Source of the DNA: Methanothermobacter thermautotrophicus str. Delta H
GTDB lineage: Archaea > Methanobacteriota > Methanobacteria > Methanobacteriales > Methanothermobacteraceae
NCBI RefSeq assembly: GCF_000008645.1
Contig: NC_000916.1
Location: 810,001-842,000, forward strand
Direction of reading: 5' to 3'
DNA: 32,000 bases
The first letter of the stretch is position 1; each line of letters starts with the position of its first letter. The notes beneath the pieces are model-generated. The model was not told where the DNA came from. It ran no database searches and saw only the letters and a program-made list of their open reading frames with translations. The position numbers and the translations under genes are program-made. Shown piece by piece: positions 663-30,451 of this stretch.

Positions 663-683
663 AATTAACAGAAGGCATCAAAA

Positions 684-3185: not shown

Positions 3186-3210
3186 TTAATTTATTTTTCA
3201 TTTATTTCAA
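3186..3210 (+). terminator. Oligo-T tract after xerA
   Basis: ttaatttatttttcatttatttc lies directly after the xerA stop. Archaeal termination typically uses T-runs. Confidence 0.35.
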
Positions 3211-3213
3211 TAA

Positions 3214-3247
3214 AATTCAGGTCAGGAGCCAGAAGATTGCCTGAATT
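3214..3247. repeat. Inverted repeat aattcagg / cctgaatt (8 bp arms, 18-nt spacer) in the xerA-permease intergenic region
   Basis: Arms read directly at 3214-3221 and 3240-3247 and are perfectly complementary. It lies upstream of a TATA-like ttatatatactgg (about 3310). Function unknown. Confidence 0.5.
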
Positions 3248-3379
3248 CTTCCTTCAAGGGCGGGCTTAATTTTTCAGAAGGTCAGTGACTTCATCGAACC
3301 ATGGAAAGTTATATATACTGGCAATCCCAATTTACCTTTATATCCATAAATTTGAATATATTGATTGGAGGTTAAAGGA

Positions 3380-13302: not shown

Positions 13303-13678
13303 TCTAACCATCAGGGCCCATCACCTCCTATGCATGAGGGGCTTTCAGGGGTACGGCTACAGTGAGGAGTTCACAGAAAACCTTGCACGTATCATCCATG
13401 AAATAAAAGGTAACCCCTCAGCTTTCCTCATGATCGTTGATTTTCCAGATGACATATGCCGGGCCTGTCCCTTCATGGATGGTCTCCGGTGTCTCAGGGA
13501 TGAAGAAAGGATCAGATCCATGGACAGGAGAGTCCTGGAACTTCTTAAACTGGAGAGCGGCTGCATGGTGACGTTCCATGACATCGAAGACGCCCTGCTT
13601 GCTCTAATCACTTCAGGCAAGATCATGGAGATATGCGGGGAATGCTCCTGGATGGATCTATGCCTCATCCACAGGTAG
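13253..13678 (+). CDS. DUF1284 family protein
   Basis: IRAHHLLCMRGFQGYGYS matches the N-terminal signature of DUF1284, followed by several Cys pairs. Start is uncertain: ATG 13253 overlaps bioY by 50 nt, and a strong SD (GGTGGAGGGTG, 13286-13296) is followed by no canonical start codon. Confidence 0.65.
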   Translation: MVKRLTSRRQKGGGCPDLTIRAHHLLCMRGFQGYGYSEEFTENLARIIHEIKGNPSAFLMIVDFPDDICRACPFMDGLRCLRDEERIRSMDRRVLELLKLESGCMVTFHDIEDALLALITSGKIMEICGECSWMDLCLIHR

Positions 13679-13698
13679 TTCTTTGCAGATGAAACCAT

Positions 13699-14800
13699 AT
13701 GATTCAAAGAAAACTTGGGTCGACAGATATAGAGGCATCAGTTCTGGGTATAGGCGTTATGCGCTTTCCAGAGGTTGACGGTAGGCTTGATAGGCTGCGG
13801 CAGATAGGATCATGCCTTCGCCCTTGACAATGGTATAAACTACATTGACACCGGCTACACCTACCATGGTGGTGAAAGTGAGGTTTTCATAGGGGACTTC
13901 CTCTCAGAAAACGATTACCCTGATGTTTACGTTGCAACCAAGCTCCCCACCTGGCTGGTGAGGGACAGGAGGGACATGGAGAGTTATCTGAATGAACAGA
14001 TGGAAAGGCTCAGGGGTAAGCTGGATATATACCTCCTCCACAACCTTAAAATGGACTCCTGGCTGGCCCTGAAGGACATGGGGGTGCTTGAATTCCTGGA
14101 CTCACTCAGGGATGAGGGTATATATGCTGGTTTCTCATTCCATGACACTGCAGACGTCTTCTTTGATATATTCGACGCCTATGACTGGGACCTTGTTCAG
14201 GTTCAGCACAACATAGTCGACGATGAACAGGCAAACCCCGCCACCATAGCCCATGCAAGGTCCCAGGGCGCGGGTACCGTTATAATGGAGCCCCTCCGTG
14301 GGGGTTCACTGGTAAGGAACATCCCCCCTGAGGTCATGGAGATATATGAGATGGCCGGGAGGCCCAGGAAACCAGTGGAGTGGTGCCTGAGGTACCTCTG
14401 GGACATGGATGCTGTTGATGTTGTTCTGAGTGGAATGAGCAGCATCTCCGAAGTGAAGGAGAACATCAAAATCGCATCATCCCCTGAGGAACTTACAGAG
14501 GATGACCATGCAATTTTAAGGGAGGTTAAGAGGGCCTACCGTATGAGAAAGACTGTCCCCTGCAGTGAGTGTGGCTACTGCATGCCCTGCCCTGAGGGCG
14601 TGGACATACCACGTAACCTCAGACTACTGAATGACATCTACAGGTTCATGAGTACGAGGGGTGTTAGAACAGAGTACCGTAAGATCATGGGTGAGGCGGA
14701 GAGGGCCTCAAACTGTTCCGGCTGTGGCTCCTGCATGCCCTGCCCCCAGATGATTGACATACCCTCTGAACTCAGGAGGCTCCATGAGAAGCTTGGATAG
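13699..14800 (+). pseudogene. Aldo/keto reductase with C-terminal 2x[4Fe-4S]-type Cys motifs, frameshifted near codon 36
   Basis: The AKR N-terminus (MIQRKLGSTDIEASVLGIGVMRFP) runs from ATG 13699 to a stop at 13825. The rest (DHAFALDNGINYIDTGYTYHGGESE ... CSECGYCMPCP, CSGCGSCMPCP) is in the +1 frame, open from 13808 to 14800. Confidence 0.75.
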
Positions 14801-14810
14801 GTGAATCAGC

Positions 14811-15008
14811 TTGATTGAAAGGTTGAAGTACTCCATTAAAATCTCATTTATGCTGGCTGTTCTTGGTTCTGCTGTCCTGTTTATCTGGGGAATGATCGGA
14901 AGGCTGGATATCAGCTGGGATGTTCTGAGATCAGCCCTTGAGGGTTTTGTTGCCTTTGGTATATTTGGATTCATACTGGGCTTCCTGATATATGACCTTG
15001 AGTCCTGA
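14811..15008 (+). CDS. Possible small two-TM membrane protein
   Basis: ORF with two hydrophobic stretches (FMLAVLGSAVLFIWGMI, FVAFGIFGFILGFLI). TTG start, no clear SD, no family recognised. Confidence 0.3.
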   Translation: MIERLKYSIKISFMLAVLGSAVLFIWGMIGRLDISWDVLRSALEGFVAFGIFGFILGFLIYDLES

Positions 15009-15098
15009 TAAACAGATGTGAGTTGAGGGTCCTCCAGATCACACCAACCATAATGACTTATGTATCATATAACATAGTAATTGAAGGGGGTGATTTCT

Positions 15099-15629
15099 TT
15101 GAAGGTTCCTGAAAATTTCAACCTCCTTGTTACACTGCGCGGCCAGAAGGGTGAAACTGCAGGCGAGGAGATAGTTGGTCTTGAAGAGACTGAAATGGCG
15201 CTATCCAGGTATGAAGGGGAACTTAGAGTCATTGAATCTGATTTTCCAAATGTTATGATGTTTGATCTTAATATGGATCCCCTTGAAGCGGTTAATATTA
15301 TCAAAAATTCTCCAACGACTGTCATATCAAAGGTTGTCCCTGTGGAGGCTGTTGTGAGGACAAGACTTGACAGTATCCTCGAGAAGGTAATAGCGCTGGT
15401 ATCAGAAAAGGTTGAGGCAGGTGAAACCTTCAGGGTGATCTGTGATCTGAGGGGTAGAAGGTATATCAGGTCAGCCGGAGAGCTTGTTGAAGCTGTTTCA
15501 GAGGCTCTTATGGAACGTTTCCCCATCACAGAATCAGATGAACCTGACTGGATCATTCAGATTGAGGTGGTGGGTGATTCTACAGGTGTCAGTGTTCTCA
15601 GGCCCCATCAGGTGATTAAGAAGGAATGA
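15099..15629 (+). CDS. THUMP-domain-like protein
   Basis: The N-terminal FNLLVTLRG pattern and overall size fit small archaeal THUMP proteins. The ORF opens at TTG 15081, but GGGGGTGA (15087-15094) precedes the in-frame TTG at 15099. Confidence 0.55.
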   Translation: MKVPENFNLLVTLRGQKGETAGEEIVGLEETEMALSRYEGELRVIESDFPNVMMFDLNMDPLEAVNIIKNSPTTVISKVVPVEAVVRTRLDSILEKVIALVSEKVEAGETFRVICDLRGRRYIRSAGELVEAVSEALMERFPITESDEPDWIIQIEVVGDSTGVSVLRPHQVIKKE

Positions 15630-15644
15630 TAGTCCCCCAAATAC

Positions 15645-15746
15645 AACTCCTGATTTAGAAATTTTTACGCAACATATATAGATACTCAAATACATAGAAA
15701 ACTCCCTGATTTAGAATTTTTACAGCAACATACTAATAGATAAACT
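15645..15746 (+). repeat. Tandem imperfect direct repeat (period 55 bp) in the promoter/leader of the 15758 gene
   Basis: Copy 1 starts at 15645: AACTCCTGATTTAGAAATTTTTACGCAACATATATAGATA. Copy 2 starts at 15700: AACTCCCTGATTTAGAATTTTTACAGCAACATACTAATAGATA. They differ by a few indels or substitutions. Confidence 0.8.
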
Positions 15747-15757
15747 GGAGGAATTAT

Positions 15758-16408
15758 ATGGAAATACAGAAAGGGGTCTTCCTGTTCCTGTTTGTTGCCG
15801 CCATCCTCCTCGGGATGGGTCAGGCAGCAGCAACAGACGATATAACGACCGGTGAATTACCAACAGGAGGATCAGGTGACTTCATCGTCACATCCGCACC
15901 CTCAAATGGTGTCTACTACACCATTAACGGCGGCATACCAACACTTAACAGTACAAGATACACCGCTCCCATAGTCCTGAACAGAACACTCAACATCAAA
16001 TACATGATAGTGAAAAACGGCACCGTAAAGTACGGTATAATACACCACACCCTAACCGGAAACATCACAAACAGAACATACCCCCACCTCATATTCAACG
16101 AAACACCACTGATACAGATACCCAACGGAACCTACTACCAGCTCAACAACGGCAACATAACACCATACACCACCCCCCTCGCCCTAACCGGAAACACAAT
16201 CATGAAATACCTCAAAAACAGCACCAACACAACACAGATGGGCATAATAAAAAACACACCAGCAAAACTGGTAAACAAGATCAAAACCTCAAAGATCAGG
16301 GTCAAAAAATGGTACAGAAGAGGCGGTAAATGGAGATACAAGTGGAGATACTACTGGACCTACAAACAGATAAAACAGAAATACCAGGAACTCCAGCCAG
16401 CCGCATAA
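15758..16408 (+). CDS. Secreted, N-glycosylation-sequon-rich protein with two internal repeats and an aromatic-basic tail
   Basis: SD GGAGG upstream. Signal peptide MEIQKGVFLFLFVAAILLGMGQAAA. Two repeats (YYTINGGIPTLNSTRYTAPIVL / YYQLNNGNITPYTTPLAL). Ten N-x-S/T sequons. Tail KKWYRRGGKWRYKWRYYWTYKQ. Confidence 0.7.
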   Translation: MEIQKGVFLFLFVAAILLGMGQAAATDDITTGELPTGGSGDFIVTSAPSNGVYYTINGGIPTLNSTRYTAPIVLNRTLNIKYMIVKNGTVKYGIIHHTLTGNITNRTYPHLIFNETPLIQIPNGTYYQLNNGNITPYTTPLALTGNTIMKYLKNSTNTTQMGIIKNTPAKLVNKIKTSKIRVKKWYRRGGKWRYKWRYYWTYKQIKQKYQELQPAA

Positions 16409-16438
16409 TCTTTTACTTTTTTTACCCTTTCGATTTTT
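16409..16438 (+). terminator. Oligo-T tracts after the 15758 gene
   Basis: T4, T7 (16417-16423), T3 and T5 runs lie immediately after the stop codon. Confidence 0.5.
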
Positions 16439-16613
16439 AGCAGGTCTGATGCTTCAGAAATTCTTTAAGATTTAGTTTATAAAAACTCATCTAAATTTTA
16501 ATTTAGTATATAAATATTTTGTTTTATTATCTTGTGGAAAATTTTATATACTGGATATTATTTATTGATGTAAATGTACTACAAGTTGAGGAGGTCTGAT
16601 TATTAAAGACTCA

Positions 16614-18710
16614 ATGAAATGGGGCTTCATTCTCTTTTTTGGAATGACACTGCTCAGCGGATCCAGTTACGGTGCAGACTACATCGTTGATAACACAACC
16701 TACCTTCAGGTATTCACACCCGGCGGGGTGCAGGGAACCTTCACCCTAAACGGGACCGAATACACCCTTGAGGACGGTGATACCTTCACCTTCCTAGAGG
16801 GCATCTATGATACGGTGAACATGGTGATCAACAGGACCATCTCCCTGGTTGCATCAGGCACGGTCCAGCTGAATGGTGTTATTGACGCCATTGCACCTTC
16901 CAGCATAACAGGTTTCAGTGTCAACGGGACAGTGAACCTCCGCGGAAACGGATGTAACCTCAGCAGCACAAACATCACAGGCACCCTGAATATCACAGGC
17001 AATTCCTCGCGGGTCAATGATTCAAGGATACTCAACCCTGCTTCAGCCGTGATGGTATCAGGGGACAATGTAACAATTACCAGCAGCTACATAAACGGTT
17101 CCGCATCCCATGGAATTGTTGTGAATGGCAGGAATGCCCGGATCCAGGGTAACAATATAACAAACAGCAATGGAAGCGGAATCCTCATCCATGGGGATGG
17201 ATGTCTTGCAGAGGGGAACACCATATACCTCTCAGGGGGTGATGGGGTAACCTCAGATGCATCTGGAGCCTCAATAATCAGAAACAGCATATCATTTAAC
17301 TCAGGAGACGGTATAAGATCCTCCGGCAATAACTCGGTGATAACAAACAACACGGTTCTCAGGAACAACGGGACCGGCATATACTCCTCAGGAAAAAATG
17401 CAACCATAAACTCAAACACCGTCAAGTACTCAGGCGATGACGGGATATATGTTGCAGGGAATGGCTCCACGGTACAGGGCTGCTATGTCCAGAACAACAC
17501 GAAGAACGGCATAAAAATAACAGGATCTGGCTGTACAGTCAGCAGTTCCTACACCTATTACAACGGTGAAAACGGGATATACTCCACAGGGGATAACACA
17601 TCATTCAGATACCTTGATTCCAGTTTCAACGCCAGGAACGGCATATACTCCTCAGGAAAAAATGCAAGCTTCTTCTATATAACCAGCGCATCCTACAATG
17701 GTGAGAACGGCATACTCTCAACCGGACCATCGGCAAGTATGCAGATCATCCTTGATGTGACCTCAAATTCACAGAACGGTGTCTCATCCAGGGGTGATAA
17801 TGCATATATATGGTTCGTTGAGGTTAAAAAGAACGGAATGAACGGTATCCATTCTTCAGGAAAGAATCTATATCTATCATACGTTAAAAACGCCACCAAC
17901 AACACCCTCAGCGGTATAAACTCAACAGGAATAAATGCAAGGATACTGGACGTCACTGTGAACCTCAACCGTGGAAACGGGATATACTCCTCAGGGTACA
18001 ACACGACCATAGCCTACTTTGAAGCAGTCAACAACCGGGGAAATGGTTTATGGATTTCCGGAGGCAGGAGCTACATTGTCGAGGGGAATACGACATCCAA
18101 CCGCCAGAACGGAGTCAGAGTGAATGGTCCCGATGCCATTGTAAGGTCCGTGAATGCGACAGACAACACCGCCAGCGGGATAGCCATCTACGGTAAGAAT
18201 GCCATCATATACAACTGCACATCCATGAGGAACACCGATGGGGTGTACGGAATAGCCAGCTTCAGGATGATCCTGAGCAGAACATCAGCCAACAGGAACT
18301 GCGGTGTGAATGCAAAGGGAACTGCAACGATAGAGCAGTGCACGGTGTATGGTAACCGTTATGGAATCTATGCTGGTGGCGCGAATTCAGTCATATACTC
18401 ATCCAGCATCAGCAGTAACAGGGGCTACGGTGTCTATGCAGCCGGTTCATCAGCAACCATCTACAGGAACACGGTACAGTCAAACGGTGGAGACGGTATA
18501 ACTGCAAGGGGAAGCTATGCAAAGATATACTACAATACAGCAAACAGGAACAGGGGCTCAGGCATAAGCTCATCATCCTACAGAGCAGTTATAGCCTACA
18601 ACAGGGCATCATATAACTCCTACTACGGAATATACTCTTCAGGTAAAAAAACGACGCTTGCAAAGAACAGTGCAGCCGGTAACAGAAAGAGAAATATAAG
18701 AAGGGGCTAA
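16614..18710 (+). CDS. Secreted parallel beta-helix repeat (PbH1-type) adhesin-like surface protein
   Basis: Signal peptide MKWGFILFFGMTLLSGSSYGA. About 25 degenerate ~22-23-aa repeats of the type NGIYSSGxNxxIxxN. Many N-x-S/T sequons. An AT-rich upstream region carries a BRE/TATA-like element (aaaattttatatactgg). Confidence 0.85.
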   Translation: MKWGFILFFGMTLLSGSSYGADYIVDNTTYLQVFTPGGVQGTFTLNGTEYTLEDGDTFTFLEGIYDTVNMVINRTISLVASGTVQLNGVIDAIAPSSITGFSVNGTVNLRGNGCNLSSTNITGTLNITGNSSRVNDSRILNPASAVMVSGDNVTITSSYINGSASHGIVVNGRNARIQGNNITNSNGSGILIHGDGCLAEGNTIYLSGGDGVTSDASGASIIRNSISFNSGDGIRSSGNNSVITNNTVLRNNGTGIYSSGKNATINSNTVKYSGDDGIYVAGNGSTVQGCYVQNNTKNGIKITGSGCTVSSSYTYYNGENGIYSTGDNTSFRYLDSSFNARNGIYSSGKNASFFYITSASYNGENGILSTGPSASMQIILDVTSNSQNGVSSRGDNAYIWFVEVKKNGMNGIHSSGKNLYLSYVKNATNNTLSGINSTGINARILDVTVNLNRGNGIYSSGYNTTIAYFEAVNNRGNGLWISGGRSYIVEGNTTSNRQNGVRVNGPDAIVRSVNATDNTASGIAIYGKNAIIYNCTSMRNTDGVYGIASFRMILSRTSANRNCGVNAKGTATIEQCTVYGNRYGIYAGGANSVIYSSSISSNRGYGVYAAGSSATIYRNTVQSNGGDGITARGSYAKIYYNTANRNRGSGISSSSYRAVIAYNRASYNSYYGIYSSGKKTTLAKNSAAGNRKRNIRRG

Positions 18711-18773
18711 CCCCCCTATTTTTCATATAAGAAAACTGTCAAGTCCTGAGACTAATTTTCCCGATCACCCTTT

Positions 18774-20249
18774 TCATTGTGGAGGGTCAAGGACCCGTAT
18801 ACTCTCATCCTCAAAGATCAAAAATTCTTCCCGGTTCCTTGTGTGTATCGGGTATATTGACTCTGGCTCAATATCCCGTATCATCCCCAGCAGGTCTGAG
18901 CGCCCTGCATGGCCAGACGAATGGAACCTTCTGTACTGGTATATGCCGAAGTGCCTGAGCCAGTTACTCTCACGCTCTGCATCAATCTCCATCTCCTCAT
19001 TGAAGGGTTCCGTCTTGGATTTGATGTAGGCTGCCCCCTCCGGTTTTATGTCTATGAACTCCTTGAATTCAAAGTAATCGCACTGGAAGAGGTACTCCTC
19101 AGGTTCCTCCCGGAGGTCCCTGCAGGTTATGGTGTTGTCAAGTTCAAGGAACGCCCGCTCCCATCCCCTGTAGTCCTGTTCCATGTATTCCTCTGGAAGG
19201 TCAGCTGCAGGTATCCATTCCCCATCAAAGCATACGAAGGCGTCCTCAGCTATCAGTCCCCAGTTCCGCCGTGGTATGTAGACCGCCAGGTCCCTTAGCC
19301 AGGGGTAACCCAGACCCTCGAAGAGTTTAATGATGTAGGCCTGTTTCAAGCTGACTGCGAGGGTCCTATCCGAGTTCTCGGCGGCTCTGTAGAATGTCAG
19401 GAAACGGTCCAGGTCCCTTATGGGGTAATTGATGATCACAAGTCCCCTGTGATTAACAGCTATGTCTGAGGTCCTCCTCTCAATGTCCTCCTCAAAGGTG
19501 CTGTTATCCTGATCTATCCGCGTCCCCTCTGTTATCATAACGGTGGGGGAGAACTTCCTTGCCTTCTTAACGAATTTACGGGATTCCTGATCTCTCCGGC
19601 CCCTGAACCTGATATCGCCTGTGTATACGATGGCCTCCTCGGATTCTATCAGATAGGCGCATGATCCTGGCACTGAATGATCAACAGGTGCCTGTGTGAT
19701 TTCAAATTCGCCCAGATCCTCAGCTTTATAGGGTTCAAGCAATTTTATGGGTCTTTCTATTTTGATATTCTTGTCTCTCATGTGTGAGGTGTTTCCAGTT
19801 TTTCTTTTCTTTTCTTTGAAGTGGAATTTGGGTTTGTAGTGAAGGAGATCTGAACTCAATGTGGATGTATCCTCTATGGCCTTCAGGATGAGGAAACTCT
19901 CCTCTGTCATGTAGAAGGGTATATCGTGGCGGATGTACTTGAGACATCCTGCATGGTCCAGGTGGGGGTGACTCAGAAGTATGCCTGATACTGCAGGCTC
20001 ATCCTCGAATCTCATTCCGAGGTACCTTACCTGGTCCTCACGGTAAAGTCCGGGTATCCATGGGAGGGCCTCGAGTTCAATGAGATCTGCGATCCCGCTG
20101 AAGCTCCTGGGCTGCAGGAATTCATCAAAGTACAGGTTTTCAATATTGAATCTTTTGCCAAAGTCAAGGAATATACCATCGCCATTGCAGGATACCTCTA
20201 TCCTGTTACCGCCTATCTCATCAACTCCACCATAGAACCTGAAGTCCAT
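18774..20249 (-). CDS. Metallo-beta-lactamase / beta-CASP ribonuclease, RNase J-like
   Basis: MDFRFYGGVDEIGGN start, HxHxDH motif (LLSHPHLDHAG), VDHSVPGSCAYLIE...YTGDIRF, and C-terminal HSSGHAG...PIHT. I prefer the ATG at 20249 (GGTGAT 3 nt upstream) over the ORF-caller start at 20339. Confidence 0.75.
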   Translation of the reverse strand: MDFRFYGGVDEIGGNRIEVSCNGDGIFLDFGKRFNIENLYFDEFLQPRSFSGIADLIELEALPWIPGLYREDQVRYLGMRFEDEPAVSGILLSHPHLDHAGCLKYIRHDIPFYMTEESFLILKAIEDTSTLSSDLLHYKPKFHFKEKKRKTGNTSHMRDKNIKIERPIKLLEPYKAEDLGEFEITQAPVDHSVPGSCAYLIESEEAIVYTGDIRFRGRRDQESRKFVKKARKFSPTVMITEGTRIDQDNSTFEEDIERRTSDIAVNHRGLVIINYPIRDLDRFLTFYRAAENSDRTLAVSLKQAYIIKLFEGLGYPWLRDLAVYIPRRNWGLIAEDAFVCFDGEWIPAADLPEEYMEQDYRGWERAFLELDNTITCRDLREEPEEYLFQCDYFEFKEFIDIKPEGAAYIKSKTEPFNEEMEIDAERESNWLRHFGIYQYRRFHSSGHAGRSDLLGMIRDIEPESIYPIHTRNREEFLIFEDESIRVLDPPQ

Positions 20250-20431
20250 ATAATCACCCGGGGTCAGTATGTGAGGAGTGCCAGGAGAATCAATAAGCCC
20301 ACCATGCAGAGCATGCACCCAGCGACTCCACCACAGCAATCATCATCCATTCAATCACCTTTATGAGTACCCTACCCCATACCATCAGAGAGACGGCAGA
20401 GGCGAGTCCAGATTAAACCCTGATGGTTCAA

Positions 20432-20449
20432 TAATATTAATTAATATTA
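20432..20449. repeat. 18-bp perfect AT palindrome
   Basis: taatattaattaatatta reads identically on both strands. It lies in the AT-rich region upstream of the RNase J-like gene. Confidence 0.8.
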
Positions 20450-20599
20450 AGCATATTTTATAAATATTTTGCTCATTGGGTTTACATTTAAATGGTTTTA
20501 TAGATCATGGCTATGAGGGCGCCACTGACTGAACTTCGATTTTTTTTATGCTCGAATATGCTGTAAAGCCTTTCATCTATAAAAGGTCTCATCAGAAGG

Positions 20600-20796
20600 C
20601 CCCTGCTTGACCTGCGGGCGACTTCATGGGCTGGCGGTTAACAGCCTCGATGACCCCACCGGAGCTGAAACTCTTAGCATCTGGAGTGTGAGCTGGACCT
20701 ATTTTCTCAGAGTAACTGGACCTGCTGCGATCAGAATGAATGCTGCCAGGGTCCCATAATAGCTGCAGGCCAGTTTTCTGCATTGGCCCCTTTTTT
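20600..20796 (+). other. Candidate unannotated plus-strand transcript (structured ncRNA or gene remnant)
   Basis: A ~200-nt segment visibly richer in G+C than its AT-rich flanks. A TATA-like tctataaaag (about 20575-20584) lies upstream. It ends in the hairpin ggcca/tggcc (20768-20772 / 20784-20788) followed by T6 (20791-20796). All plus-strand ATG-initiated ORFs are short (the longest is 52 codons) and lack an SD. No RNA family recognised. Confidence 0.25.
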
Positions 20797-20849
20797 AAGG
20801 AAGAGAGGATCAATCACTGCACATCATCCTGTGAATTAATTTTTATATT

Positions 20850-20869
20850 CGTAATAGTGACCTATTACG
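20850..20869. repeat. Perfect 8-bp stem / 4-nt loop hairpin
   Basis: cgtaatag tgac ctattacg read directly. It lies in the intergenic region downstream of the minus-strand surface-protein gene. Function unknown. Confidence 0.6.
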
Positions 20870-20940
20870 AAGGTAGCTGTAGGTCCACACGGACATAAGA
20901 CCCTGAAAATTAAAACTGACATCTGCATCATTCAGTTCAT

Positions 20941-20962
20941 AAAAAAAGAAATAGGTGATGGA
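20941..20962 (-). terminator. T7 tract just after the stop of the 20963 gene (minus strand)
   Basis: On the minus strand the TAA stop is followed by tccatcacctatttcttttttt. The T7 corresponds to plus-strand A7 at 20941-20947. Confidence 0.5.
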
Positions 20963-22264
20963 TTATTTGCCCGGTTGCCATATTGCCTCGTTGGATCTGC
21001 CGGCCCTTCTCCTAAAGAGGTACATGCCCAGACCCCCGACAGCCAGAATAATTGCCGCATACACAGGTATAAACCAGCTTGATGATGCACTGCCGGGATG
21101 CTCTGCTGGATTTACTGGTGATGATGTTCCCTGACCGGTAACCTCTTCGACCACAGCACTGGAGTCATCAGATCTTATTCTTTTCATGATCCACGAAATC
21201 ACTGAAGCTTTTCCTGCTGTCACTGATCCATAGGAAACTTCTGGTGTGTTCTGAGCCTGGTTTTCTGGAACACTTATACTGCCTACCTGATGGGCATTTC
21301 CTGCAAGATCAACAGCATAGTAATAGACTGTCTTTACATGCTTACCCAGTTTGACAGGTGCACTGTAAACATTCCATGTTCTGCCATCAAAGGAATAAAA
21401 GATCGTCCCCTCCTCATTGATATCCATGTACAGTGTGGAGTCATCTACTCGCACATTTAAAGATGGTGCTGTAACATCTTCAAAGTCCTTAATATAGCTC
21501 ACTGGATCACTGGCAGCAATTAATGACCTGAACTCTCCTGATGTCAGAGTTACTGATTTTGCAATGGAATAAGCAGACGTCACTGTACCATAGAGTTCTT
21601 TACCAGGGAATGCCTGTGTAATGTACCAGAGAGCCCAGTACATTGTTTTGTAGTAACTGTTAGATGCTGGCTGTATGGCGTTGACTGCATCTTTATTGTA
21701 GGATACAAGTATGGCCTTTCCCGTGTTCTTAACAGGATCCCACCTTATGGCAATACCAACTGCACTGGCATCTGATGCTGTTCTGGTTCCTGTCGTGAAA
21801 TAGTTACCTCTCGCTGCTGAGAGTCCCAGGACCTCCATGAGCACCTGTTCCTTACAGTGAGCAGGCACACCGATGTATGCATAGTACTGTCCATCTGATA
21901 GAGGAAGCCATGATCGGATTATGTTGGCAAGCACGTATCCCTGCGCCAGACCGGACCCTGGACATCCACCCCCGGTGGCAGCCAGAGCGAACTCGTAGGG
22001 CATAGCATAAGCCCACTGGTTCGCCAGACTCACAATATAGTAGTCCTGCTGTGCGTACTGGGGAATGCTGTATCCATAGGTTGACGCGACTGCGAGGGAT
22101 TTCTGATAGCCTTCGGTTCCCGTAGCACCGGCAAGGTTTACAGCGCTGATATCAAACACATTGAACTGTGTCCCTCCATATGTGACCGGTCTTATGGCTC
22201 CATTACCATCAACAAAAACCGCGTGGAGTGGACCTGTCGTTTCGTCTGGTTTTTTAACGAACAC
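20963..22264 (-). CDS. C-terminal part of an exported FmdE-like repeat protein (second FmdE-like module, Y-x-x-DG beta-sandwich-like segment, TM anchor)
   Basis: No ATG, SD or signal peptide at its 5' end (GTG only). Contains GGGCPGSGLAQGY and AHCKEQVLMEVLGLSAARGNYF...IAIRWDP (FmdE-like), IFYSFDGRTWNVYSAPVKL, and the C-terminal TM helix WFIPVYAAIILAVGGLGMYLF followed by RRRAGR. It is in frame with the upstream ORF. Confidence 0.7.
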   Translation of the reverse strand: MFVKKPDETTGPLHAVFVDGNGAIRPVTYGGTQFNVFDISAVNLAGATGTEGYQKSLAVASTYGYSIPQYAQQDYYIVSLANQWAYAMPYEFALAATGGGCPGSGLAQGYVLANIIRSWLPLSDGQYYAYIGVPAHCKEQVLMEVLGLSAARGNYFTTGTRTASDASAVGIAIRWDPVKNTGKAILVSYNKDAVNAIQPASNSYYKTMYWALWYITQAFPGKELYGTVTSAYSIAKSVTLTSGEFRSLIAASDPVSYIKDFEDVTAPSLNVRVDDSTLYMDINEEGTIFYSFDGRTWNVYSAPVKLGKHVKTVYYYAVDLAGNAHQVGSISVPENQAQNTPEVSYGSVTAGKASVISWIMKRIRSDDSSAVVEEVTGQGTSSPVNPAEHPGSASSSWFIPVYAAIILAVGGLGMYLFRRRAGRSNEAIWQPGK

Positions 22265-22279
22265 GTACCAGAGAGGTGT

Positions 22280-23527
22280 CTACGTACCTCTTTTGAGGGA
22301 GTATATGTTTTTAAATTTTATGCCTGTTGCTGATATTATACCATCAATGGCGCCAGCAGAGATTCCCTGTGTCTCTGAGTAACCTGCAGATGTTATTAGA
22401 AGATCATCACTGTCAAGCGGTTCAAAACCAGCAGCTTGAAGGGCTCTATTGGCTACCATGACAGCATTAATACCACTGGCATACATTGCGCTGTACTCCT
22501 CACGTGGGATGACACTGACTGTGCTTGTCCACTCAATTGGAGTTACCGGGATGGATGAAATGTATTCGCTGTCAATTCCAGTATCCCATAGTGTTTTAAA
22601 GGTCTGATAGTCGATATTTGTTGCTTTAAGTACCTTGTAGAGTGCTGATGGATTAGTTGCGAGCATTCCTATACACTGAGCATTCTTTATAAGTCCCTGA
22701 AGTGTCTCCCCACCATTATATGTCATATCTGAGAGGGTCCAGTAAAACATCACACCTGTCCTTGAGAGAGAATCCCATCTTATGTAAATGTTCTCATGGG
22801 AATCATCCGTGTATGCTGATTTGAAGTTATAAAATGTGTCTGAACCTACTGTAACCCACTTCAAAGGCGTTGAATCCATGAAAAACATTGGCACGTCATC
22901 ATCACCACCCCCAGTGGAGACTATCACATGATATGATGTTGCATTTGAAGTTAGTGGATAGTTGGCCAGGAACTGTTTTGAAGCGGAGTATGCCCCTATA
23001 AGACCAGGGCTAACGTTTCCAGTCCACGCAGCCACCTTTAAAAGATCACTGGGTGCGCCAGCATTCCATGCACTCAGCAGGCTCAGCACATCATAACCCA
23101 GATTCGCCTTTGCCTGCTGGAACTGGTTTTCAGTCATGTCAAGACCTATGTATACTACGGGTGTTTTTAGCACTGCCCCTGACTGAAGAACTGTGTATTT
23201 CCTTGCATAATATCCCTTGCTGTTTTTCACGGCAAATGTGAAGGTTGGGTCATGGTCCGGCTGGTTCATCTGAAAAATCTTTGAATATTTTATAGGAACT
23301 GTTTCCATCACGGTCTGTATCGCGTCTTCTGTTGTGGTGTTGGAATACCTTGCTGAACCGGCATTTGTTATAAGGATCATATCATCTGCGTTTGATATGT
23401 TCAGGGAAGTCTCCGCGTCATTTGAGATGTGGTGTGTAATATCTTCCAGTGGTGTCGCTGAGCTGATACCGGTAAAAAGAAACACCGTTAGCACTGGGAT
23501 CACTAGAGTCAGAAGTTTGTTTTTCAT
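22280..23527 (-). CDS. N-terminal part of the same exported FmdE-like repeat protein (signal peptide plus first module), ending at an in-frame TAG
   Basis: GGAGGTGA lies 7 nt before the ATG at 23527. Signal peptide MKNKLLTLVIPVLTVFLFTGISSA. FmdE-like segment TGNVSPGLIGAYSASKQF. Stop TAG at 22282-22280. Confidence 0.7.
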   Translation of the reverse strand: MKNKLLTLVIPVLTVFLFTGISSATPLEDITHHISNDAETSLNISNADDMILITNAGSARYSNTTTEDAIQTVMETVPIKYSKIFQMNQPDHDPTFTFAVKNSKGYYARKYTVLQSGAVLKTPVVYIGLDMTENQFQQAKANLGYDVLSLLSAWNAGAPSDLLKVAAWTGNVSPGLIGAYSASKQFLANYPLTSNATSYHVIVSTGGGDDDVPMFFMDSTPLKWVTVGSDTFYNFKSAYTDDSHENIYIRWDSLSRTGVMFYWTLSDMTYNGGETLQGLIKNAQCIGMLATNPSALYKVLKATNIDYQTFKTLWDTGIDSEYISSIPVTPIEWTSTVSVIPREEYSAMYASGINAVMVANRALQAAGFEPLDSDDLLITSAGYSETQGISAGAIDGIISATGIKFKNIYSLKRGT

Positions 23528-23676
23528 TTCAATTTTCACCTCCATTTAAATCATAAATATCGAGTTACATTTTTATGTAATTCGTATATAAATAGGTATG
23601 TGAATCCACAGAACTGCAGTACTCTGCCGAGGAGAAAGATCAGTTTTAAAAGAATAACTGGGTGTGAAATGCAGAT

Positions 23677-24300
23677 ATGATGATTCATGGATTTAAAAGA
23701 CTTGAAAGTAAGAGAAACCATGTATACTTAATCCAATCAGGTACAGAAAGTTTCATAGTCAAAGTACACAAAACCAGCGAAAAATCTTACCTCGAATCAG
23801 AAAATGTGAAACTACTGAGGGATAAAGGAGTCAGAGTGCCTAGAATACTTGGTGTCTCCGAAAATATCCTGATTGAGGAGTTCATCGAGGGAAAAACCAT
23901 CGGAGAACTGATATCTAGGGCAGACACAAAATGGGCAGAAAGCCTTGGAAAGTGGTTCTCAGAAATTCACAGTATAAAAAAACAGTCCAAGACCCTTTTA
24001 AAGGGTGACTGCAATCTTAAAAACTTCATATTCACAGAAAAAGAGATTTTTGGGCTTGATTTTGAATATATGTACTATGGGAATCCTTATAATGATCTTG
24101 GAAAACTATGCTTCTTCATAATGGATAGTAACTCACAGATGTCCATGAATGACAAAAAACACCTTATAAAAAGGTTTCTGAGTGCCTATGAAGATCACTC
24201 AAAAACTGTTGTAAATCCAAAAATTGTGGCTGAATACATGGAAATCGAGAAGAAACGGGCCCTGATAAGAAGGGAACGTCATACTCCTAAATGGTTATAA
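23677..24300 (+). CDS. Small protein-kinase-fold phosphotransferase (APH/choline-kinase/Bud32-like)
   Basis: FIVKVHK (Lys of the beta3-like strand), hinge IEEFIEGKT, catalytic-loop-like LLKGDCNLKNFIF, and metal-binding-like GLDFEYMYYGNPYNDLGKL. Confidence 0.6.
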   Translation: MMIHGFKRLESKRNHVYLIQSGTESFIVKVHKTSEKSYLESENVKLLRDKGVRVPRILGVSENILIEEFIEGKTIGELISRADTKWAESLGKWFSEIHSIKKQSKTLLKGDCNLKNFIFTEKEIFGLDFEYMYYGNPYNDLGKLCFFIMDSNSQMSMNDKKHLIKRFLSAYEDHSKTVVNPKIVAEYMEIEKKRALIRRERHTPKWL

Positions 24301-24823: not shown

Positions 24824-25366
24824 GTGGGGCAGGTCAGAGAATACCTTGATTTAATAAAAAATTTCAGTGGGTTCGCAAGCCCGGGCAGTGTCATAGGAGC
24901 TCATATGTTACTAATAGCCCGGAAGGTCCTTGATTTTGAAGTCGATGAAGAAATTTATGTTACATGTGAAACGACAAACTGTTTACCCGACGCATTCCAG
25001 GCCATATGCAAATCAACAATAGGAAATGGGAGACTGAATATCCTGGACACTGGAAAAATGGCTGTCATCATCAACAGAAAGGGTATGCCTGGAGAAACAG
25101 TCCAGGCTCTTAGAATAATACTGGATCCTGAAAAGACCGTCAATTACCCGATCATACATGAATGGTACATGAACACCCGCAAGGTATCCGCAGAAGAAGT
25201 GAATCCAGAACTCATAAGAGCCGGTGAGAATCTATATTCCTGGTATTTTGTTGATGTGATCGTCCCGGAAAAAGAAAAGAAGATAATTGAAATCTGTAAT
25301 CTTTGCAACGAACCTTTCATAAAAAGAAACGAGCTGGATCTCTGTCCAGCTTGTCTGAAAAGATAA
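24824..25366 (+). CDS. fmdE: Molybdenum formylmethanofuran dehydrogenase operon protein FmdE
   Basis: GTG start 6 nt after GGTGAT. FmdE-family core (GFASPGSVIGAHM ... CETTNCLPDAFQAICKSTIGNGRLNILDTGK) and a C-terminal zinc ribbon (CNLCNEPF...CPAC). It is the first gene of an E-C-B arrangement. Confidence 0.85.
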   Translation: MGQVREYLDLIKNFSGFASPGSVIGAHMLLIARKVLDFEVDEEIYVTCETTNCLPDAFQAICKSTIGNGRLNILDTGKMAVIINRKGMPGETVQALRIILDPEKTVNYPIIHEWYMNTRKVSAEEVNPELIRAGENLYSWYFVDVIVPEKEKKIIEICNLCNEPFIKRNELDLCPACLKR

Positions 25367-28980: not shown

Positions 28981-29761
28981 AAGCCCCCATTTTTTCAAGG
29001 AAAAATATTGTTATGAATGAAATTATCATAAGGAAGATACCGGATGCCACAGCCATCTCCACGTTTCCATAGGATAAATTAAGATACAGAGATATAGGGA
29101 GAGTATCTGTTTTCTGATAGGTACCTCCGGCAACTATCAGTACCGCTCCAAAGCAGCCTATGCACCTTGAAAAGGTAATTATTGTTGCAGCTAATATTCC
29201 ATCCCTGGATAAAGGGATCATGATATTTCTGAACGTCTCAAATTCTGTATATCCAAGGGAACGGGAAACAAATTTGAGTCTCCTATCGATGTTACAGAAT
29301 GTTGAGTAACATATTCTGACCGTATACGGTAAAGAGACAAAGAACTGTGCACAGATGACTCCAAGATCCGTGAAGACTATCTGAATACCGAGTCCATCCA
29401 TCATATAATTTAGAGGGGTGTTTCCAAGAAATATGAGAAGCATTATACCTATAAGAATTTCAGGTAATGCTATAGGAATATCCAGCACTGTTTTAACAAT
29501 GGATTTCCCTCTGAAGGAGTCCTCTGATAGTGAATAAGCAATGAGCAGCGCAGATAACATCACAATCAGTGTTGTTATAGTGGATGTTAAAAGAGATAAT
29601 TTCACTGAGTGGATCATATCAGCACTTCTGAATGAATCCAGGATGGATTGCGGAGAGGATACTGTCCAGAGTGAAATACATATTATAAAAAATGCGGCCA
29701 CAAAGATGACCGCAAAGAATCTGCAAGTACCTCTGAAAATACTCACTCGCTCAATGGACAA
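28952..29761 (-). CDS. modB: ABC transporter permease (ModB/WtpB-like)
   Basis: Multi-TM protein with an EAA-type loop (SRSLGYTEFETFRNIMIPLSRDGILAA). An alternative GTG start at 29746 forms a GTGA overlap with the upstream stop. Confidence 0.85.
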   Translation of the reverse strand: MSIERVSIFRGTCRFFAVIFVAAFFIICISLWTVSSPQSILDSFRSADMIHSVKLSLLTSTITTLIVMLSALLIAYSLSEDSFRGKSIVKTVLDIPIALPEILIGIMLLIFLGNTPLNYMMDGLGIQIVFTDLGVICAQFFVSLPYTVRICYSTFCNIDRRLKFVSRSLGYTEFETFRNIMIPLSRDGILAATIITFSRCIGCFGAVLIVAGGTYQKTDTLPISLYLNLSYGNVEMAVASGIFLMIISFITIFFLEKMGAYGNEFSGYR

Positions 29762-30451
29762 AACCGTTCAACCCCCATCAGTGCTGCTAACCCTGCTATC
29801 GTTGTTCCATAAAATATTACTCTTTTATCTGATGCCATGGCCATGATATCTTCAAATGTACCGTTAGCTACAGTAGAACCGGTTACCACTAAAACATCAG
29901 AATTCTGAATTATCTTCTTATTGCATTTTTTTGCATCAAATACATCTACACCATATTTTTTGCCCTTATTTCCAGGATTCAGATCTGTAACCCGCAATCT
30001 GTCTCCAAATGTCTCGTGAAGTTTCCTTACAAACGCCGGTTGAAACCCAAGCAAAGCAACTCTGTCATATCCCAGCAATTCAAGGTAATCTGAAAGTAAT
30101 TCAGCACACCTTTCAGGAGCGTTTCCAGTGCAGTGAACTGTCCTATCAATGAAACCCTTTCTTCCTCATGAGTGCATTGAAAGTAGCTATCAAACACGAT
30201 TGTTTCCCTTTTACTAAAAGTTCCCCGAGGGTTCCTCTGAAATGAGTGGGAGTAGCTGTGAAGCACTCCCCTACAGTACCATCTTCAAGAGTCGCTCTGA
30301 GCATGACCTCTCTCCCCTCAACAAGAGGATAATCCTTGATGGTTGATGTATCAAGGAGAGGGTTCTTCACAGAGATCTCGACATATGTGGACTCCATGGC
30401 TGACGAATGTATCAGATAGTTCATTTTATCCCTGATAAACTCATGTATCAT
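29743..30451 (-). pseudogene. DUF364-like (Rossmann-like, putative metal-chelation) protein split by a single-base frameshift
   Basis: ORFs 30146..30451 and 29743..30078 join if one base is removed in the AAAGGGTTT run (plus-strand 30152-30160), giving ...FNALMRKKGFIDRTVHCTGNAPERCAELLSDYLELLGYDRVALLGFQP... The C-terminal half parallels the 31258 gene (DVLVVTGSTVANGT vs DVLAVTGSTLVNHS). Confidence 0.65.

What the first reader, a model, noticed from the sequence alone, without database searches (positions are those of the whole stretch)
20963..23545. An exported, membrane-anchored protein with two tandem FmdE-like modules, split by one in-frame TAG
The minus-strand ORFs 22280..23545 and 20963..22264 share one reading frame (23545-22264 = 1281 = 3 x 427). 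Only TAG (22282-22280) and five sense codons (TPLWY) separate them before the GTG that the ORF caller used as a start.

- The upstream part has an SD-preceded ATG (23527) and a signal peptide, but no anchor.
- The downstream part has no ATG, SD or signal peptide, yet it ends in a TM helix plus a basic tail.
- An internal repeat aligns straight across the stop: ILITNAGSARYSNTTTEDAIQTVMETVPIKYSKIFQMNQPDHDPTFTFAVK versus LLITSAGYS-ETQGISAGAIDGIISATGIKFKNIYSLKRGT*TPLWYVFVK. The TAG aligns with a His.
- Each module also carries a segment resembling the FmdE-family core, including the FmdE encoded 1.3 kb away. Compare TGNVSPGLIGAYSA and TGGGCPGSGLAQGY with FmdE SGFASPGSVIGAHM, and AHCKEQVLMEVLGLSAARGNYF...IAIRWDP with FmdE TNCLPDAFQAICKSTIGNGRLNI...LRIILDP.

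FmdE is normally a small cytoplasmic accessory protein whose role is poorly defined. I do not know of a described case where a duplicated, exported, anchored FmdE-like ectodomain sits next to tfx-fmdECB and a Mo/W uptake operon. The TAG could be a nonsense mutation, a sequencing error or a read-through site.
Basis: partly seen in the sequence, partly recalled or inferred. Interest (0 to 1): 0.8.

Follow-up and report, generated by a model that had tools for sequence, protein, structure and literature searches.

The report
Broken gene for exported double-FmdE protein
In Methanothermobacter thermautotrophicus ΔH, two adjacent "unknown" genes are one surface-protein gene cut by a recent C→T stop mutation; the intact protein is an uncharacterised, exported, membrane-anchored tandem of two degenerate FmdE-type domains that tends to sit beside metal-uptake genes and has been knocked out independently in several Methanothermobacter lineages.

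Summary
Minus-strand 23545..20963 is one reading frame with a single in-frame TAG at 22282-22280. The window is M. thermautotrophicus ΔH, and the two pieces are deposited as separate "unknown" proteins.

All 18 close relatives are single 805-878 aa proteins, with Gln (12) or Trp (6) at that codon. A ΔH-type allele (CP194219) differs only by CAG there. The split persists in the independent ΔH re-sequencing (CP064324), so it is a real, very recent nonsense mutation. It is not a sequencing error, two genes or recoding.

The architecture is also supported: signal peptide, two homologous ~320-345 aa modules (hhalign E=2e-16), stalk, C-terminal TM helix. Both modules are homologous to a larger family of exported single-module proteins (E=1e-33 and 1e-44). 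All 58 of those tested hit Pfam FmdE. However, the window protein does not pass Pfam's FmdE threshold, module 1 alone gives no FmdE fold match, and the canonical His2Cys2 metal site is lost in module 1 and reduced to Cys2 in module 2.

Relatives sit beside metal or metal-chelate uptake genes. The archaeal two-module form always neighbours a small Bud32/APH-like kinase gene and often ModABC. The gene is independently inactivated four times in Methanothermobacter. Its function is untested.

The parts
20963..23527 (-). One gene, deposited as two 'unknown' proteins (AAB85412, 421 aa, and AAB85411, 433 aa; probably MTH914 and MTH913). It encodes an 854-aa precursor counted from ATG 23527, or 860 aa from ATG 23545, and is interrupted at codon 422.
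   Evidence: Single frame. All 18 homologues are single 805-878 aa proteins. Exact look-up identifies ΔH and the accessions.
23536..23543 (-). Shine-Dalgarno-like GGAGGTGA, 8 nt upstream of ATG 23527, the likely true start.
   Evidence: Sequence. Homologue N-termini align with MK... at codon 7.
23456..23527 (-). Signal peptide (aa 7-30: MKNKLLTLVIPVLTVFLFTGISSA), with predicted cleavage after the conserved S29-A30.
   Evidence: Hydrophobicity scan and conservation in all 19 family members. No dedicated signal-peptide predictor was available.
22511..23455 (-). Module 1 (aa 31-345): an N-terminal alpha/beta subdomain (ILITNAGSA...) plus a degenerate FmdE-type core. The four canonical metal ligands are replaced by T175, N177, S179 and G214. 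It has its own invariant SYH...GGGDDDVPM motif.
   Evidence: hhalign vs module 2 E=2.2e-16 and vs the single-module FmdE set E=1.3e-33. AF2 pLDDT 87. No FmdE fold hit on its own.
22280..22282 (-). In-frame TAG at codon 422, lying inside the N-terminal subdomain of module 2. It is a nonsense mutation of CAG (Gln).
   Evidence: CAG in L001 and in all intact Methanothermobacter alleles. Gln in 12 and Trp in 6 homologues. It is the only difference from P0027. Present in both ΔH assemblies.
21476..22510 (-). Module 2 (aa 346-690): an N-terminal subdomain (LLITSAGYS...PLWYVFVKKP) plus an FmdE-type core with GGGCPGSG and AHCKEQ.
   Evidence: hhalign vs the single-module set E=1.2e-44. Pfam FmdE E=0.063 at aa 528-586. 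The top four PDB fold hits of the full model are chains of the three FmdE-like structures (2glz A and B, 3d00, 2gvi).
21962..21964 (-). Cys528, the retained equivalent of the first Cys ligand of the FmdE metal site.
   Evidence: Invariant in the family. Aligned to C of HxHxCPG. Ligand identity taken from PMC2954224.
21854..21859 (-). His563-Cys564. Cys564 is the retained equivalent of the second Cys ligand, and His563 is an invariant neighbour.
21266..21466 (-). Small beta-sandwich domain (aa ~694-760), chitobiase-C/OmpL47-like. It is present only in the Methanothermobacter-type clade of the family.
   Evidence: CHB_HEX_C_1 E=0.0044 and OmpL47 barrel E=4.7e-7, both below their cutoffs. 5 of 19 members hit CHB_HEX_C_1, best 3.8e-7. 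Beta strands in the AF2 model. This region is a gap in the Methanobacterium-type members.
21077..21265 (-). Low-confidence, poorly conserved stalk (aa 761-823).
   Evidence: pLDDT below 50. Variable in the alignment.
20963..21076 (-). C-terminal TM helix (W824-F844), a short basic tail ending in the conserved ...GK (R845-K860), and the stop codon.
   Evidence: Hydrophobicity. AF2 helix 826-850. Y842 invariant and C-terminal GK conserved.
23677..24300 (+). Divergently transcribed small Bud32/RIO/APH-fold kinase-like gene (207 aa). It is the one neighbour conserved beside the two-module gene in every genome examined.
   Evidence: Pfam APH 1.2e-10 and RIO1 1.2e-6. NCBIfam arch_bud32 51.9 bits against a cutoff of 125. 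Adjacent in 6 of 6 other genera-level loci. Invariant catalytic-type motifs.

Best explanation
Shown: window 23527..20963 (minus strand) is a single gene of M. thermautotrophicus ΔH that a CAG-to-TAG transition at codon 422 has recently turned into a pseudogene.

Shown or predicted: the intact product, found in sister strains, is a Sec-type exported, C-terminally anchored surface protein. It consists of a signal peptide, two tandem homologous ~320-345 aa modules, a small beta-sandwich, a stalk, a TM helix and a short conserved basic tail. Each module has an N-terminal alpha/beta subdomain followed by an FmdE-superfamily alpha+beta core.

Inferred (about 0.35 confidence for this functional part): FmdE cores are described as forming intertwined homodimers, each with a His2Cys2 metal site. 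The tandem duplication may therefore make a single-chain pseudo-dimer. In that arrangement module 1 would be a ligand-less structural partner, and module 2 would keep a reduced Cys528/Cys564 (+His563) site. Relatives with intact sites are exported partners of TonB-dependent receptors and FecCD-type importers. The archaeal form is linked to ModABC/TOBE and to a small kinase-like protein. I therefore think the protein most likely binds or senses a trace metal or metal chelate (Mo/W being the favoured candidate) outside the membrane, in support of uptake or its regulation. It would be dispensable when metals are plentiful, which would explain its repeated loss.

In ΔH, only a secreted, unanchored fragment could be made: 421 aa as annotated, or 415 aa counted from the likely start at codon 7. 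This fragment would contain module 1 plus a stub of module 2.
For: One gene and a nonsense mutation:
- Single frame with one TAG.
- All 18 homologues are uninterrupted, with Q or W at the site.
- A 99.5% identical contig has CAG.
- P0027 differs from ΔH only at codon 422.
- The identical split appears in the independent re-sequencing CP064324.
- TAG ends 7 of 25 window ORFs, and there is no SD or start for the 3' piece.

Architecture:
- Signal-like N-terminus and C-terminal TM helix in all 19 members.
- AF2 model pLDDT 75, pTM 0.72.
- Module 1 vs module 2 E=2.2e-16.

FmdE ancestry:
- Modules vs single-module set E=1.3e-33 and 1.2e-44.
- 58 of 58 of that set hit PF02663, best 6.7e-26.
- That set's profile hits crystal structure 2GLZ at 5.4e-10.
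- 13 of 19 family members hit PF02663 at E<=0.1, best 2.5e-6.
- The top four PDB fold hits are chains of the three FmdE-like structures 2glz (A and B), 3d00 and 2gvi, with prob 0.94-0.99.

Metal link:
- The FmdE site is His/His/Cys/Cys binding Zn/Ni, and PF02663 genes cluster with metal transporter genes (PMC2954224).
- Single-module relatives sit next to a TonB-dependent receptor plus flavin reductase, or inside a FecCD/ABC/Peripla_BP_2 cluster with CobW.
- Two-module homologues sit next to TOBE+ModABC in L006 and L009, and have modC nearby in 4 of 6 genomes.
- The window itself has tfx-fmdECB and modABC.

Dispensability: there are four independent lesions in near-identical alleles, namely ΔH Q422*, +1 T at codon 171, -1 C at codon 129, and a Marburg deletion leaving 24 codons.
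Against: - The window protein itself does not reach Pfam's FmdE gathering score (13.8 vs 22.9 bits).
- Each half alone gives no FmdE hit.
- Profiles of the family hit no solved structure directly.
- Module 1 alone gives no FmdE fold match.
- The defining His2Cys2 site is absent from module 1 and half lost in module 2, so metal binding is not assured.
- ModABC adjacency is not universal: it is absent in L002 and L007/L008, and one Electrothrix single-module locus has no adjacent transporter.
- No expression or proteomic data for this gene could be read.
- Signal peptide and topology rest on hydrophobicity heuristics, not a dedicated predictor.
Confidence: 0.8

Rival explanations
1. The TAG is a sequencing or assembly error, and ΔH really encodes the intact 860-aa protein.
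For: The 1997 ΔH sequence differs from the 2023 re-sequencing at several hundred positions (PMC10579436 Table 1). A second apparent frameshift lies in the same window, in the DUF364 gene, and I could not confirm that one independently.
Against: The exact 421-aa and 433-aa pieces are also deposited under the re-sequencing accessions WBF07128 and WBF07127, on the 1,751,429-bp contig. That project corrected many other differences but kept this one.
Confidence: 0.03
2. The TAG is read through or recoded (pyrrolysine or natural suppression), so ΔH still makes full-length protein.
For: The stop is a single in-frame TAG in an otherwise undamaged ORF. There are no further amino-acid changes relative to the intact allele.
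Against: - Orthologues carry CAG or TGG, not a conserved TAG.
- TAG terminates 7 of 25 ORFs in the window.
- Methanobacteriales are not known to carry the pyl system (established knowledge, not testable in this window).
- No Rfam element or notable structure was found around the site.
- The lack of further decay is equally explained by the mutation being very recent.
Confidence: 0.03
3. The two ORFs are, or have become, two separately expressed functional genes: a secreted N-terminal protein and a separately translated C-terminal membrane protein.
For: They are annotated as two genes in both ΔH records. In M. wolfeii BSEL, a 'FmdE domain containing protein' (A0A9E7UME9) was detected by proteomics (PMC13355700). 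This might be the 668-aa 3' fragment of the frameshifted homologue, but the link is unverified.
Against: - Every homologue outside the damaged strains is one ORF.
- The 3' ORF has no SD, no ATG and no signal peptide, so its modules could not reach the outside.
- The break falls inside a folded subdomain.
- The break points differ between strains (codons 129, 171, 422, and a deletion), which looks like damage rather than design.
Confidence: 0.05
4. The intact protein is a structural or adhesive surface protein with no metal-related role. The FmdE-type cores would be merely a degenerate scaffold, and the gene would be lost in culture as adhesins commonly are.
For: - Both metal sites are degenerate.
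- The gene lies in a variable block with other exported surface-type proteins: a beta-helix/NosD-like 698-aa protein and a CHB_HEX_C protein. That block is missing from Marburg.
- It carries a chitobiase-C-like beta-sandwich and a stalk.
- It has been inactivated repeatedly in cultured strains and reactor populations.
Against: - Module cores are strongly conserved. Cys528, His563 and Cys564 are invariant, as is module 1's SYH...GGGDDDVPM motif, across 37-62% identical homologues. That argues for a specific site rather than a passive scaffold.
- Linkage to ModABC/TOBE and to a kinase-like gene is conserved across genera.
- Relatives are embedded in uptake operons.
Confidence: 0.25

Closest known systems
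FmdE family (Pfam PF02663); crystal structures 2GLZ, 3D00, 2GVI (Axelrod et al. 2010, PMC2954224)
   Same: The alpha+beta core of module 2 is homologous to this family, shown transitively by sequence and as the top PDB fold hits. The CPG and C-x-x-[DE] motif positions are retained. The family tendency to lie next to metal-transporter genes is also shared.
   Different: - Exported and membrane-anchored rather than a small cytoplasmic protein.
- Two tandem copies in one chain, each preceded by an extra ~100-aa subdomain not covered by PF02663.
- No C-terminal treble-clef zinc finger.
- His-x-His ligands lost in both modules, and both Cys lost in module 1.
- The window protein scores below Pfam's threshold.
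Exported single-module 'FmdE family proteins' of Desulfobacterota (e.g. Desulfonema DENIS_4330, Desulfospira, Electrothrix); uncharacterised
   Same: The same module (N-terminal TNAGY-type subdomain plus FmdE core plus C-terminal extension) aligns end to end, at E=1e-33 and 1e-44. Both groups have signal peptides and a genomic association with uptake systems.
   Different: The single-module proteins have one module, are mostly soluble or lipoprotein-like with no C-terminal TM, and keep the full HxHxC...C site. Their partners are TonB-dependent receptors, flavin reductase and FecCD-type importers rather than ModABC and a kinase-like gene.
FmdE of the fmdECB operon in the same window (24824-25366)
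   Same: Same superfamily. It is also degenerate at three of the four core ligands (S15, F17, S19). It lies in the same Mo-related neighbourhood.
   Different: It is 180 aa, cytoplasmic and single-domain, with a weak zinc-finger-like C-terminus. There is no detectable pairwise similarity to either module.
Strain-specific pseudogenes of surface or uptake genes in laboratory strains (general phenomenon)
   Same: A single-nucleotide nonsense or frameshift lesion sits in an otherwise intact ORF. Independent lesions occur in sister lineages, while environmental and other strains keep the gene.
   Different: Nothing unusual here; this is the ordinary part of the finding.

Membership tests
FmdE family (Pfam PF02663) | Protein scores above the Pfam gathering threshold for PF02663 | tested here: not met
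   Halves: no hit at E<=1. Joined protein: 13.8 bits, E=0.063, against a cutoff of 22.9. 13 of 19 family members match at E<=0.1, best 2.5e-6.
FmdE family (Pfam PF02663) | Homology to bona fide members demonstrable through profiles or intermediates | tested here: met
   Module 1 and module 2 vs 58 single-module relatives: E=1.3e-33 and 1.2e-44. All 58 hit PF02663. Their profile hits 2GLZ at 5.4e-10.
FmdE family (Pfam PF02663) | Alpha+beta core fold as in 2GLZ, 3D00 and 2GVI | tested here: inconclusive
FmdE family (Pfam PF02663) | His-x-His-x-Cys ... Cys metal site in the core domain (PMC2954224) | tested here: not met
   Module 1: T175, N177, S179, G214. Module 2: gap, G526, C528, C564. The site is fully present in the single-module relatives.
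FmdE family (Pfam PF02663) | C-terminal treble-clef zinc finger (present in a subset of members) | tested here: not met
   No zf-Tbcl_FmdE hit in either half. This feature is optional for the family.
Exported, C-terminally anchored (type I) archaeal surface protein | N-terminal signal peptide and a single C-terminal TM helix followed by a basic tail | tested here: met
   Hydrophobicity scan of all 19 members. Conserved S-A cleavage motif. AF2 helices 2-24 and 826-850. Only heuristics were used; no SignalP or TMHMM was available.
Tandem internal duplication | The two halves align over most of their length with statistical support | tested here: met
   hhalign prob 98.7%, E=2.2e-16 over 297 columns. 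The subdomains separately give 4e-11 and 3.5e-11.
Programmed TAG recoding (pyrrolysine or read-through) | TAG conserved at the site in orthologues | tested here: not met
   CAG or TGG in all orthologues. TAG is a common terminator in the window.
Programmed TAG recoding (pyrrolysine or read-through) | pylTSBCD genes present in the genome | not testable with these tools
   Only a 32-kb window is available. From general knowledge, Methanobacteriales lack the pyl system.
Molybdate/tungstate uptake accessory component | Conserved genomic linkage to ModABC/TOBE | tested here: inconclusive
   Linkage is present in the window and in L003/L006, L004, L005 and L009. It is absent in L002 and L007/L008. 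Binding and transport were not tested.
KEOPS Bud32 (for the conserved neighbour at 23677-24300) | Score above the NCBIfam equivalog cutoff | tested here: not met
   arch_bud32 51.9 bits against a cutoff of 125. It is a paralogous small kinase fold, not Bud32 itself.

The most novel reading that the evidence does not exclude
The anchored two-module protein and the small Bud32/APH-like kinase always encoded beside it could form a previously unrecognised trans-membrane unit of Methanobacteriaceae. The degenerate FmdE ectodomain would detect or capture extracellular Mo/W (or another trace metal or chelate). Its short conserved cytoplasmic tail would engage the kinase-like protein, feeding into control of uptake (ModABC) and, in Methanothermobacter, of the Tfx-regulated fmdECB operon. 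More broadly, this would make the exported branch of the FmdE superfamily a new class of extracytoplasmic metal or metal-chelate handling domain.
Probability: 0.12. Interest if true: 0.75.

Novelty: new variant of a known kind. Interest (0 to 1): 0.45.

Why it matters
- **Annotation.** Two long-standing 'unknown' ORFs of the reference methanogen ΔH are one pseudogene. Anyone using ΔH or Marburg as a model is working with natural knock-outs of this gene, while strain Z-245 and others carry it intact. That gives a ready-made comparison.
- **FmdE biology.** FmdE has had no assigned function since the fmdECB operon was described in the 1990s. A sizeable exported branch of the superfamily is embedded in TonB/FecCD-type uptake clusters in bacteria and next to ModABC in methanogens. 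This points to extracytoplasmic metal handling and gives a testable direction.
- **Gene loss.** Four independent inactivations in near-identical alleles suggest relaxed or negative selection on this surface protein, possibly under metal-replete cultivation. This is relevant to strain choice in biomethanation.

The TAG itself is ordinary.

Tried and rejected
- Direct Pfam and NCBIfam scans of the two halves gave no FmdE hit.
- I suspected the N-terminal subdomain might be a second, permuted FmdE half. hhalign of N- vs C-subdomains shows no similarity (E 0.12-0.4), so I rejected this.
- A module-1-only model was searched against the PDB and gave no meaningful hit.
- Profiles of A1 and A4 against PDB sequences gave nothing.
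- NCBIfam has no model matching the single-module family.
- Literature: no paper mentions MTH913 or MTH914. A first FmdE/TonB query was too loose to be useful. Supplements of the two relevant omics papers are not held, so expression could not be checked. The possible identity of A0A9E7UME9 with the M. wolfeii fragment remains unverified.
- The genome-contig scan returned no Methanothermobacter genome. I reached those loci instead through the identical FmdB protein.
- tRNA, Rfam and promoter/terminator scans around the gene found nothing informative. The promoter scan is bacterial-type and at chance level.
- An exact look-up of the DUF364 fragments failed.


Full report
**1. The observation**

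Translating window 23545..20963 on the minus strand gives 861 codons with a single internal stop. This is TAG at 22282-22280 (codon 422), followed by TPLWY and the GTG that the ORF caller used as the start of the second ORF. The first ATG (23545) is followed immediately by GGAGGTGA and, 8 nt later, by ATG 23527. Homologues start at the position of that second ATG, so 23527 is the likely start. No SD-like element precedes GTG428 or any later in-frame start. TAG terminates 7 of the 25 long ORFs of the window.

**2. Organism and annotation**

Exact look-up shows the window is Methanothermobacter thermautotrophicus ΔH. The pieces are AAB85412 (421 aa) and AAB85411 (433 aa), both named 'unknown'. 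By accession order relative to Tfx and FmdE they are probably MTH914 and MTH913; that numbering is my inference. The same two sequences also exist as WBF07128 and WBF07127 on a 1,751,429-bp contig. Casini et al. 2023 identify that contig as their independent re-sequencing of ΔH, CP064324 (PMC10579436). No paper in the searchable library mentions these ORFs.

**3. One gene, recently broken**

- All 18 relatives found in 5.8 billion proteins are uninterrupted 805-878 aa proteins. At the TAG column, 12 have Gln and 6 have Trp.
- A 99.5% identical contig has CAG at the site.
- A ΔH-type allele (P0027, CP194219) differs from the ΔH translation at codon 422 only.

The lesion is therefore a single C-to-T transition that is private to ΔH and very recent. 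Sequencing error is unlikely because of the re-sequencing. Recoding is unsupported because the TAG is not conserved and TAG is a normal stop here. Two independent genes is contradicted by every orthologue and by the absence of start and export signals on the 3' piece.

**4. Recurrent loss**

I used the window's FmdB, which is identical in many strains, as a handle to fetch ten Methanothermobacter loci, then compared the DNA.
- The gene is intact in six loci: AP018336, a JGI contig, Z-245, CP194219, an ENA contig and CaT2.
- L018 has a +1 T at codon 171 (GGT to GGTT), matching the M. wolfeii 178 + 668 aa split that is seen in 21 contigs from several sources.
- L019 and L020 have a -1 C at codon 129 (CCC to CC), in two separate assemblies.
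- M. marburgensis Marburg is reduced to the first 24 codons. After that point a ~10-kb block (window ~13362-23474) is missing, while the kinase-like gene, tfx, fmdECB and modABC remain at 99% identity.

Together with ΔH this makes four independent inactivations in alleles that are otherwise at least 99% identical. The neighbouring genes are intact wherever they are present.

**5. Architecture**

All 19 family members have a signal-peptide-like N-terminus ending in a conserved Ser-Ala, and one C-terminal hydrophobic helix followed by basic residues. An AlphaFold2 model built on the family alignment has pLDDT 75 and pTM 0.72. It is confident across residues 31-760 and disordered in 762-831.

Profile-profile comparison shows that residues 31-345 and 346-690 are homologous over 297 columns (prob 98.7%, E=2.2e-16). 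Their N-terminal subdomains give E=4e-11 and their C-terminal cores 3.5e-11, with no similarity between subdomain types. A weak chitobiase-C/OmpL47-like beta-sandwich follows at aa ~694-760. It is found only in the Methanothermobacter-type clade.

**6. Is it FmdE-like?**

Directly, barely:
- The halves give no PF02663 hit.
- The joined protein reaches 13.8 bits, E=0.063, below the 22.9-bit cutoff.
- There is no pairwise or profile similarity to the FmdE encoded 1.3 kb away.

Transitively, yes:
- A profile of the family searched against 1.84 billion representatives finds 216 relatives, many of them 330-400 aa single-module proteins.
- 58 of these align end to end with each module, at E=1.3e-33 and 1.2e-44.
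- All 58 hit PF02663, best 6.7e-26.
- Their profile hits the FmdE-like crystal structure 2GLZ at 5.4e-10, with the FHxHxCP...CxxDAxQ...TxG motif aligned.
- 13 of the 19 two-module proteins hit PF02663 at E<=0.1, always in module 2.

At the fold level:
- The top four PDB fold hits of the full model are 2glz_A, 2glz_B, 3d00 and 2gvi (prob 0.94-0.99, E 0.02-0.09).
- A confident model of module 1 alone (pLDDT 87) retrieves no FmdE structure.
- Module 1's assignment therefore rests on sequence-profile homology only.

**7. Metal site**

The FmdE core binds Zn/Ni through His-x-His-x-Cys...Cys (PMC2954224).
- The single-module relatives keep all four ligands.
- Module 2 keeps only Cys528 and Cys564, with an invariant His563 beside the latter.
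- Module 1 has Thr, Asn, Ser and Gly at the ligand positions, but carries its own invariant SYH...GGGDDDVPM motif.

Among more distant long relatives there is a series. Some unanchored two-module proteins keep HxHxCPG in both modules. Some anchored ones keep it only in module 2. The window's subfamily keeps it in neither. Axelrod et al. describe FmdE cores as tightly intertwined dimers. A tandem duplication that replaces the homodimer by a single-chain pseudo-dimer, followed by decay of one site, is a reasonable evolutionary reading. I could not inspect the coordinates to test it.

**8. Context**

In the window the gene is flanked by a divergent small kinase-like gene, then tfx, fmdE, fmdC and fmdB, then a convergent modC-modB-DUF364-modA-DUF364 operon. 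ModA scores above the TIGR01256 cutoff.

Across six other genomes with 37-56% identical homologues:
- The kinase-like gene is adjacent in all six, even though its orientation and position change.
- A modC homologue lies within a few kb in four of the six.
- TOBE+ModABC are immediately adjacent in two (L006 and L009).
- tfx and fmdEC are not found.

The kinase-like protein has the Bud32/RIO/APH fold but scores far below the Bud32 equivalog cutoff. It keeps invariant Lys, LKGDCNL[KR]NFI and GxD[FY]E motifs.

The bacterial single-module relatives come mostly from Desulfobacterota and are labelled 'FmdE family protein'. In two genomes they lie directly after a TonB-dependent receptor gene and before a flavin reductase gene. 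In a third genome the gene sits inside a FecCD/ABC/Peripla_BP_2 cluster with CobW. A fourth has no adjacent transporter. This agrees with the remark in PMC2954224 that most PF02663 genes neighbour metal-ion transporter genes.

**9. Most likely mechanism**

Shown: this is a single gene for an exported, anchored, two-module protein of FmdE-superfamily descent, inactivated in ΔH by Q422*.

Inferred: the ectodomain binds or senses a trace metal or metal chelate outside the membrane in support of uptake or its regulation. Mo/W is the favoured candidate in Methanobacteriaceae. Module 2's Cys/Cys/His cluster would be the working site and module 1 a structural partner. The protein would be dispensable when metals are abundant, hence the repeated loss. 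I give the structural and pseudogene part about 0.9, and the functional part about 0.35. The main functional rival, at about 0.25, is a purely structural or adhesive surface protein lost in culture.

**10. Novelty and score**

- The stop codon is an ordinary strain-specific nonsense mutation.
- The protein family is not described in any paper I could find. It has no NCBIfam model and no solved structure.
- Exported FmdE-domain proteins are numerous in databases and already carry the family label. The anchored, duplicated, ligand-depleted archaeal form is therefore a new variant of a known kind, not a new kind.
- It is useful for annotation and as a lead on FmdE function, and it comes with natural knock-out and intact strain pairs.
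- Interest: 0.45.

Noticed in passing
window 23677-24300 (+): A 207-aa Bud32/RIO/APH-fold kinase-like gene is the only neighbour conserved next to the two-module gene in all seven genomes examined, despite changes in orientation. It is not the KEOPS Bud32 (51.9 bits against a cutoff of 125). Its catalytic-type motifs (K, LKGDCNLxNFI, GxDFE) are invariant. It persists in M. marburgensis even though the partner gene is deleted there.
   Followed up: partly
window 29743-30451 (-), between modB and modA: The DUF364 ('putative heavy-metal chelation') gene is a single 235-aa ORF in Marburg, Z-245, CP194219 and CaT2. In this window it carries a +1 A insertion at nt 291, giving a stop at codon 102 and two short ORFs. 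It could be a second ΔH-specific pseudogene in the same metal-related neighbourhood, or an error of the 1997 sequence. Exact look-up of the fragments found nothing, so this is unresolved.
   Followed up: partly
window 24824-25366 (+), fmdE: The genuine FmdE of the fmdECB operon hits Pfam FmdE at 1e-30. However, it has Ser15, Phe17 and Ser19 where the family's metal site has His, His and Cys; only Cys52 and Asp55 remain. The operon's own FmdE therefore probably cannot form the canonical His2Cys2 site either.
   Followed up: partly
window ~13362-23474: A ~10-kb block is absent from M. marburgensis Marburg. In that genome the collinear sequence resumes at window 23474, 24 codons into the gene. 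Besides the two-module gene, the block carries several other genes, including a CHB_HEX_C_1/Fn3_assoc protein (15758-16408), a 698-aa beta-helix/NosD-like protein with a hydrophobic N-terminus (16614-18710), and an MBL/RMMBL-fold protein (18774-20339). It looks like a variable surface-protein island.
   Followed up: partly
L019, L020, L021 positions ~1-4200 (downstream of the gene): In three Methanothermobacter genomes, the MBL and beta-helix genes downstream of the two-module gene are replaced by a segment encoding a phage-type integrase and small ORFs. No tRNA gene was found anywhere in the ΔH window that could serve as an attachment site.
   Followed up: partly
L006 19196-21067 and L009 17750-19638: In the Methanobacterium-type loci, a CLIPPER (PF01345) + MotA/ExbB + DUF2149 gene trio lies just beyond ModABC. 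In L006 a FecCD/ABC/Peripla_BP_2 importer lies between them. An ExbB-like motor next to importers is unexpected in an archaeon without an outer membrane.
   Followed up: no
L010 1377-3614 (Desulfonema ishimotonii): A 745-aa FmdE-domain protein lies immediately upstream of the TonB-dependent receptor + single-module FmdE + flavin reductase cluster. Two-module forms may therefore also exist in bacteria, in the same uptake context.
   Followed up: no
L007/L008 4490-8578 and L021-L023 16778-21311: Very large CobN/Mg-chelatase-like genes (1362-1666 aa) recur near the locus in several Methanobacteriaceae. This adds to the impression of a trace-metal island.
   Followed up: no
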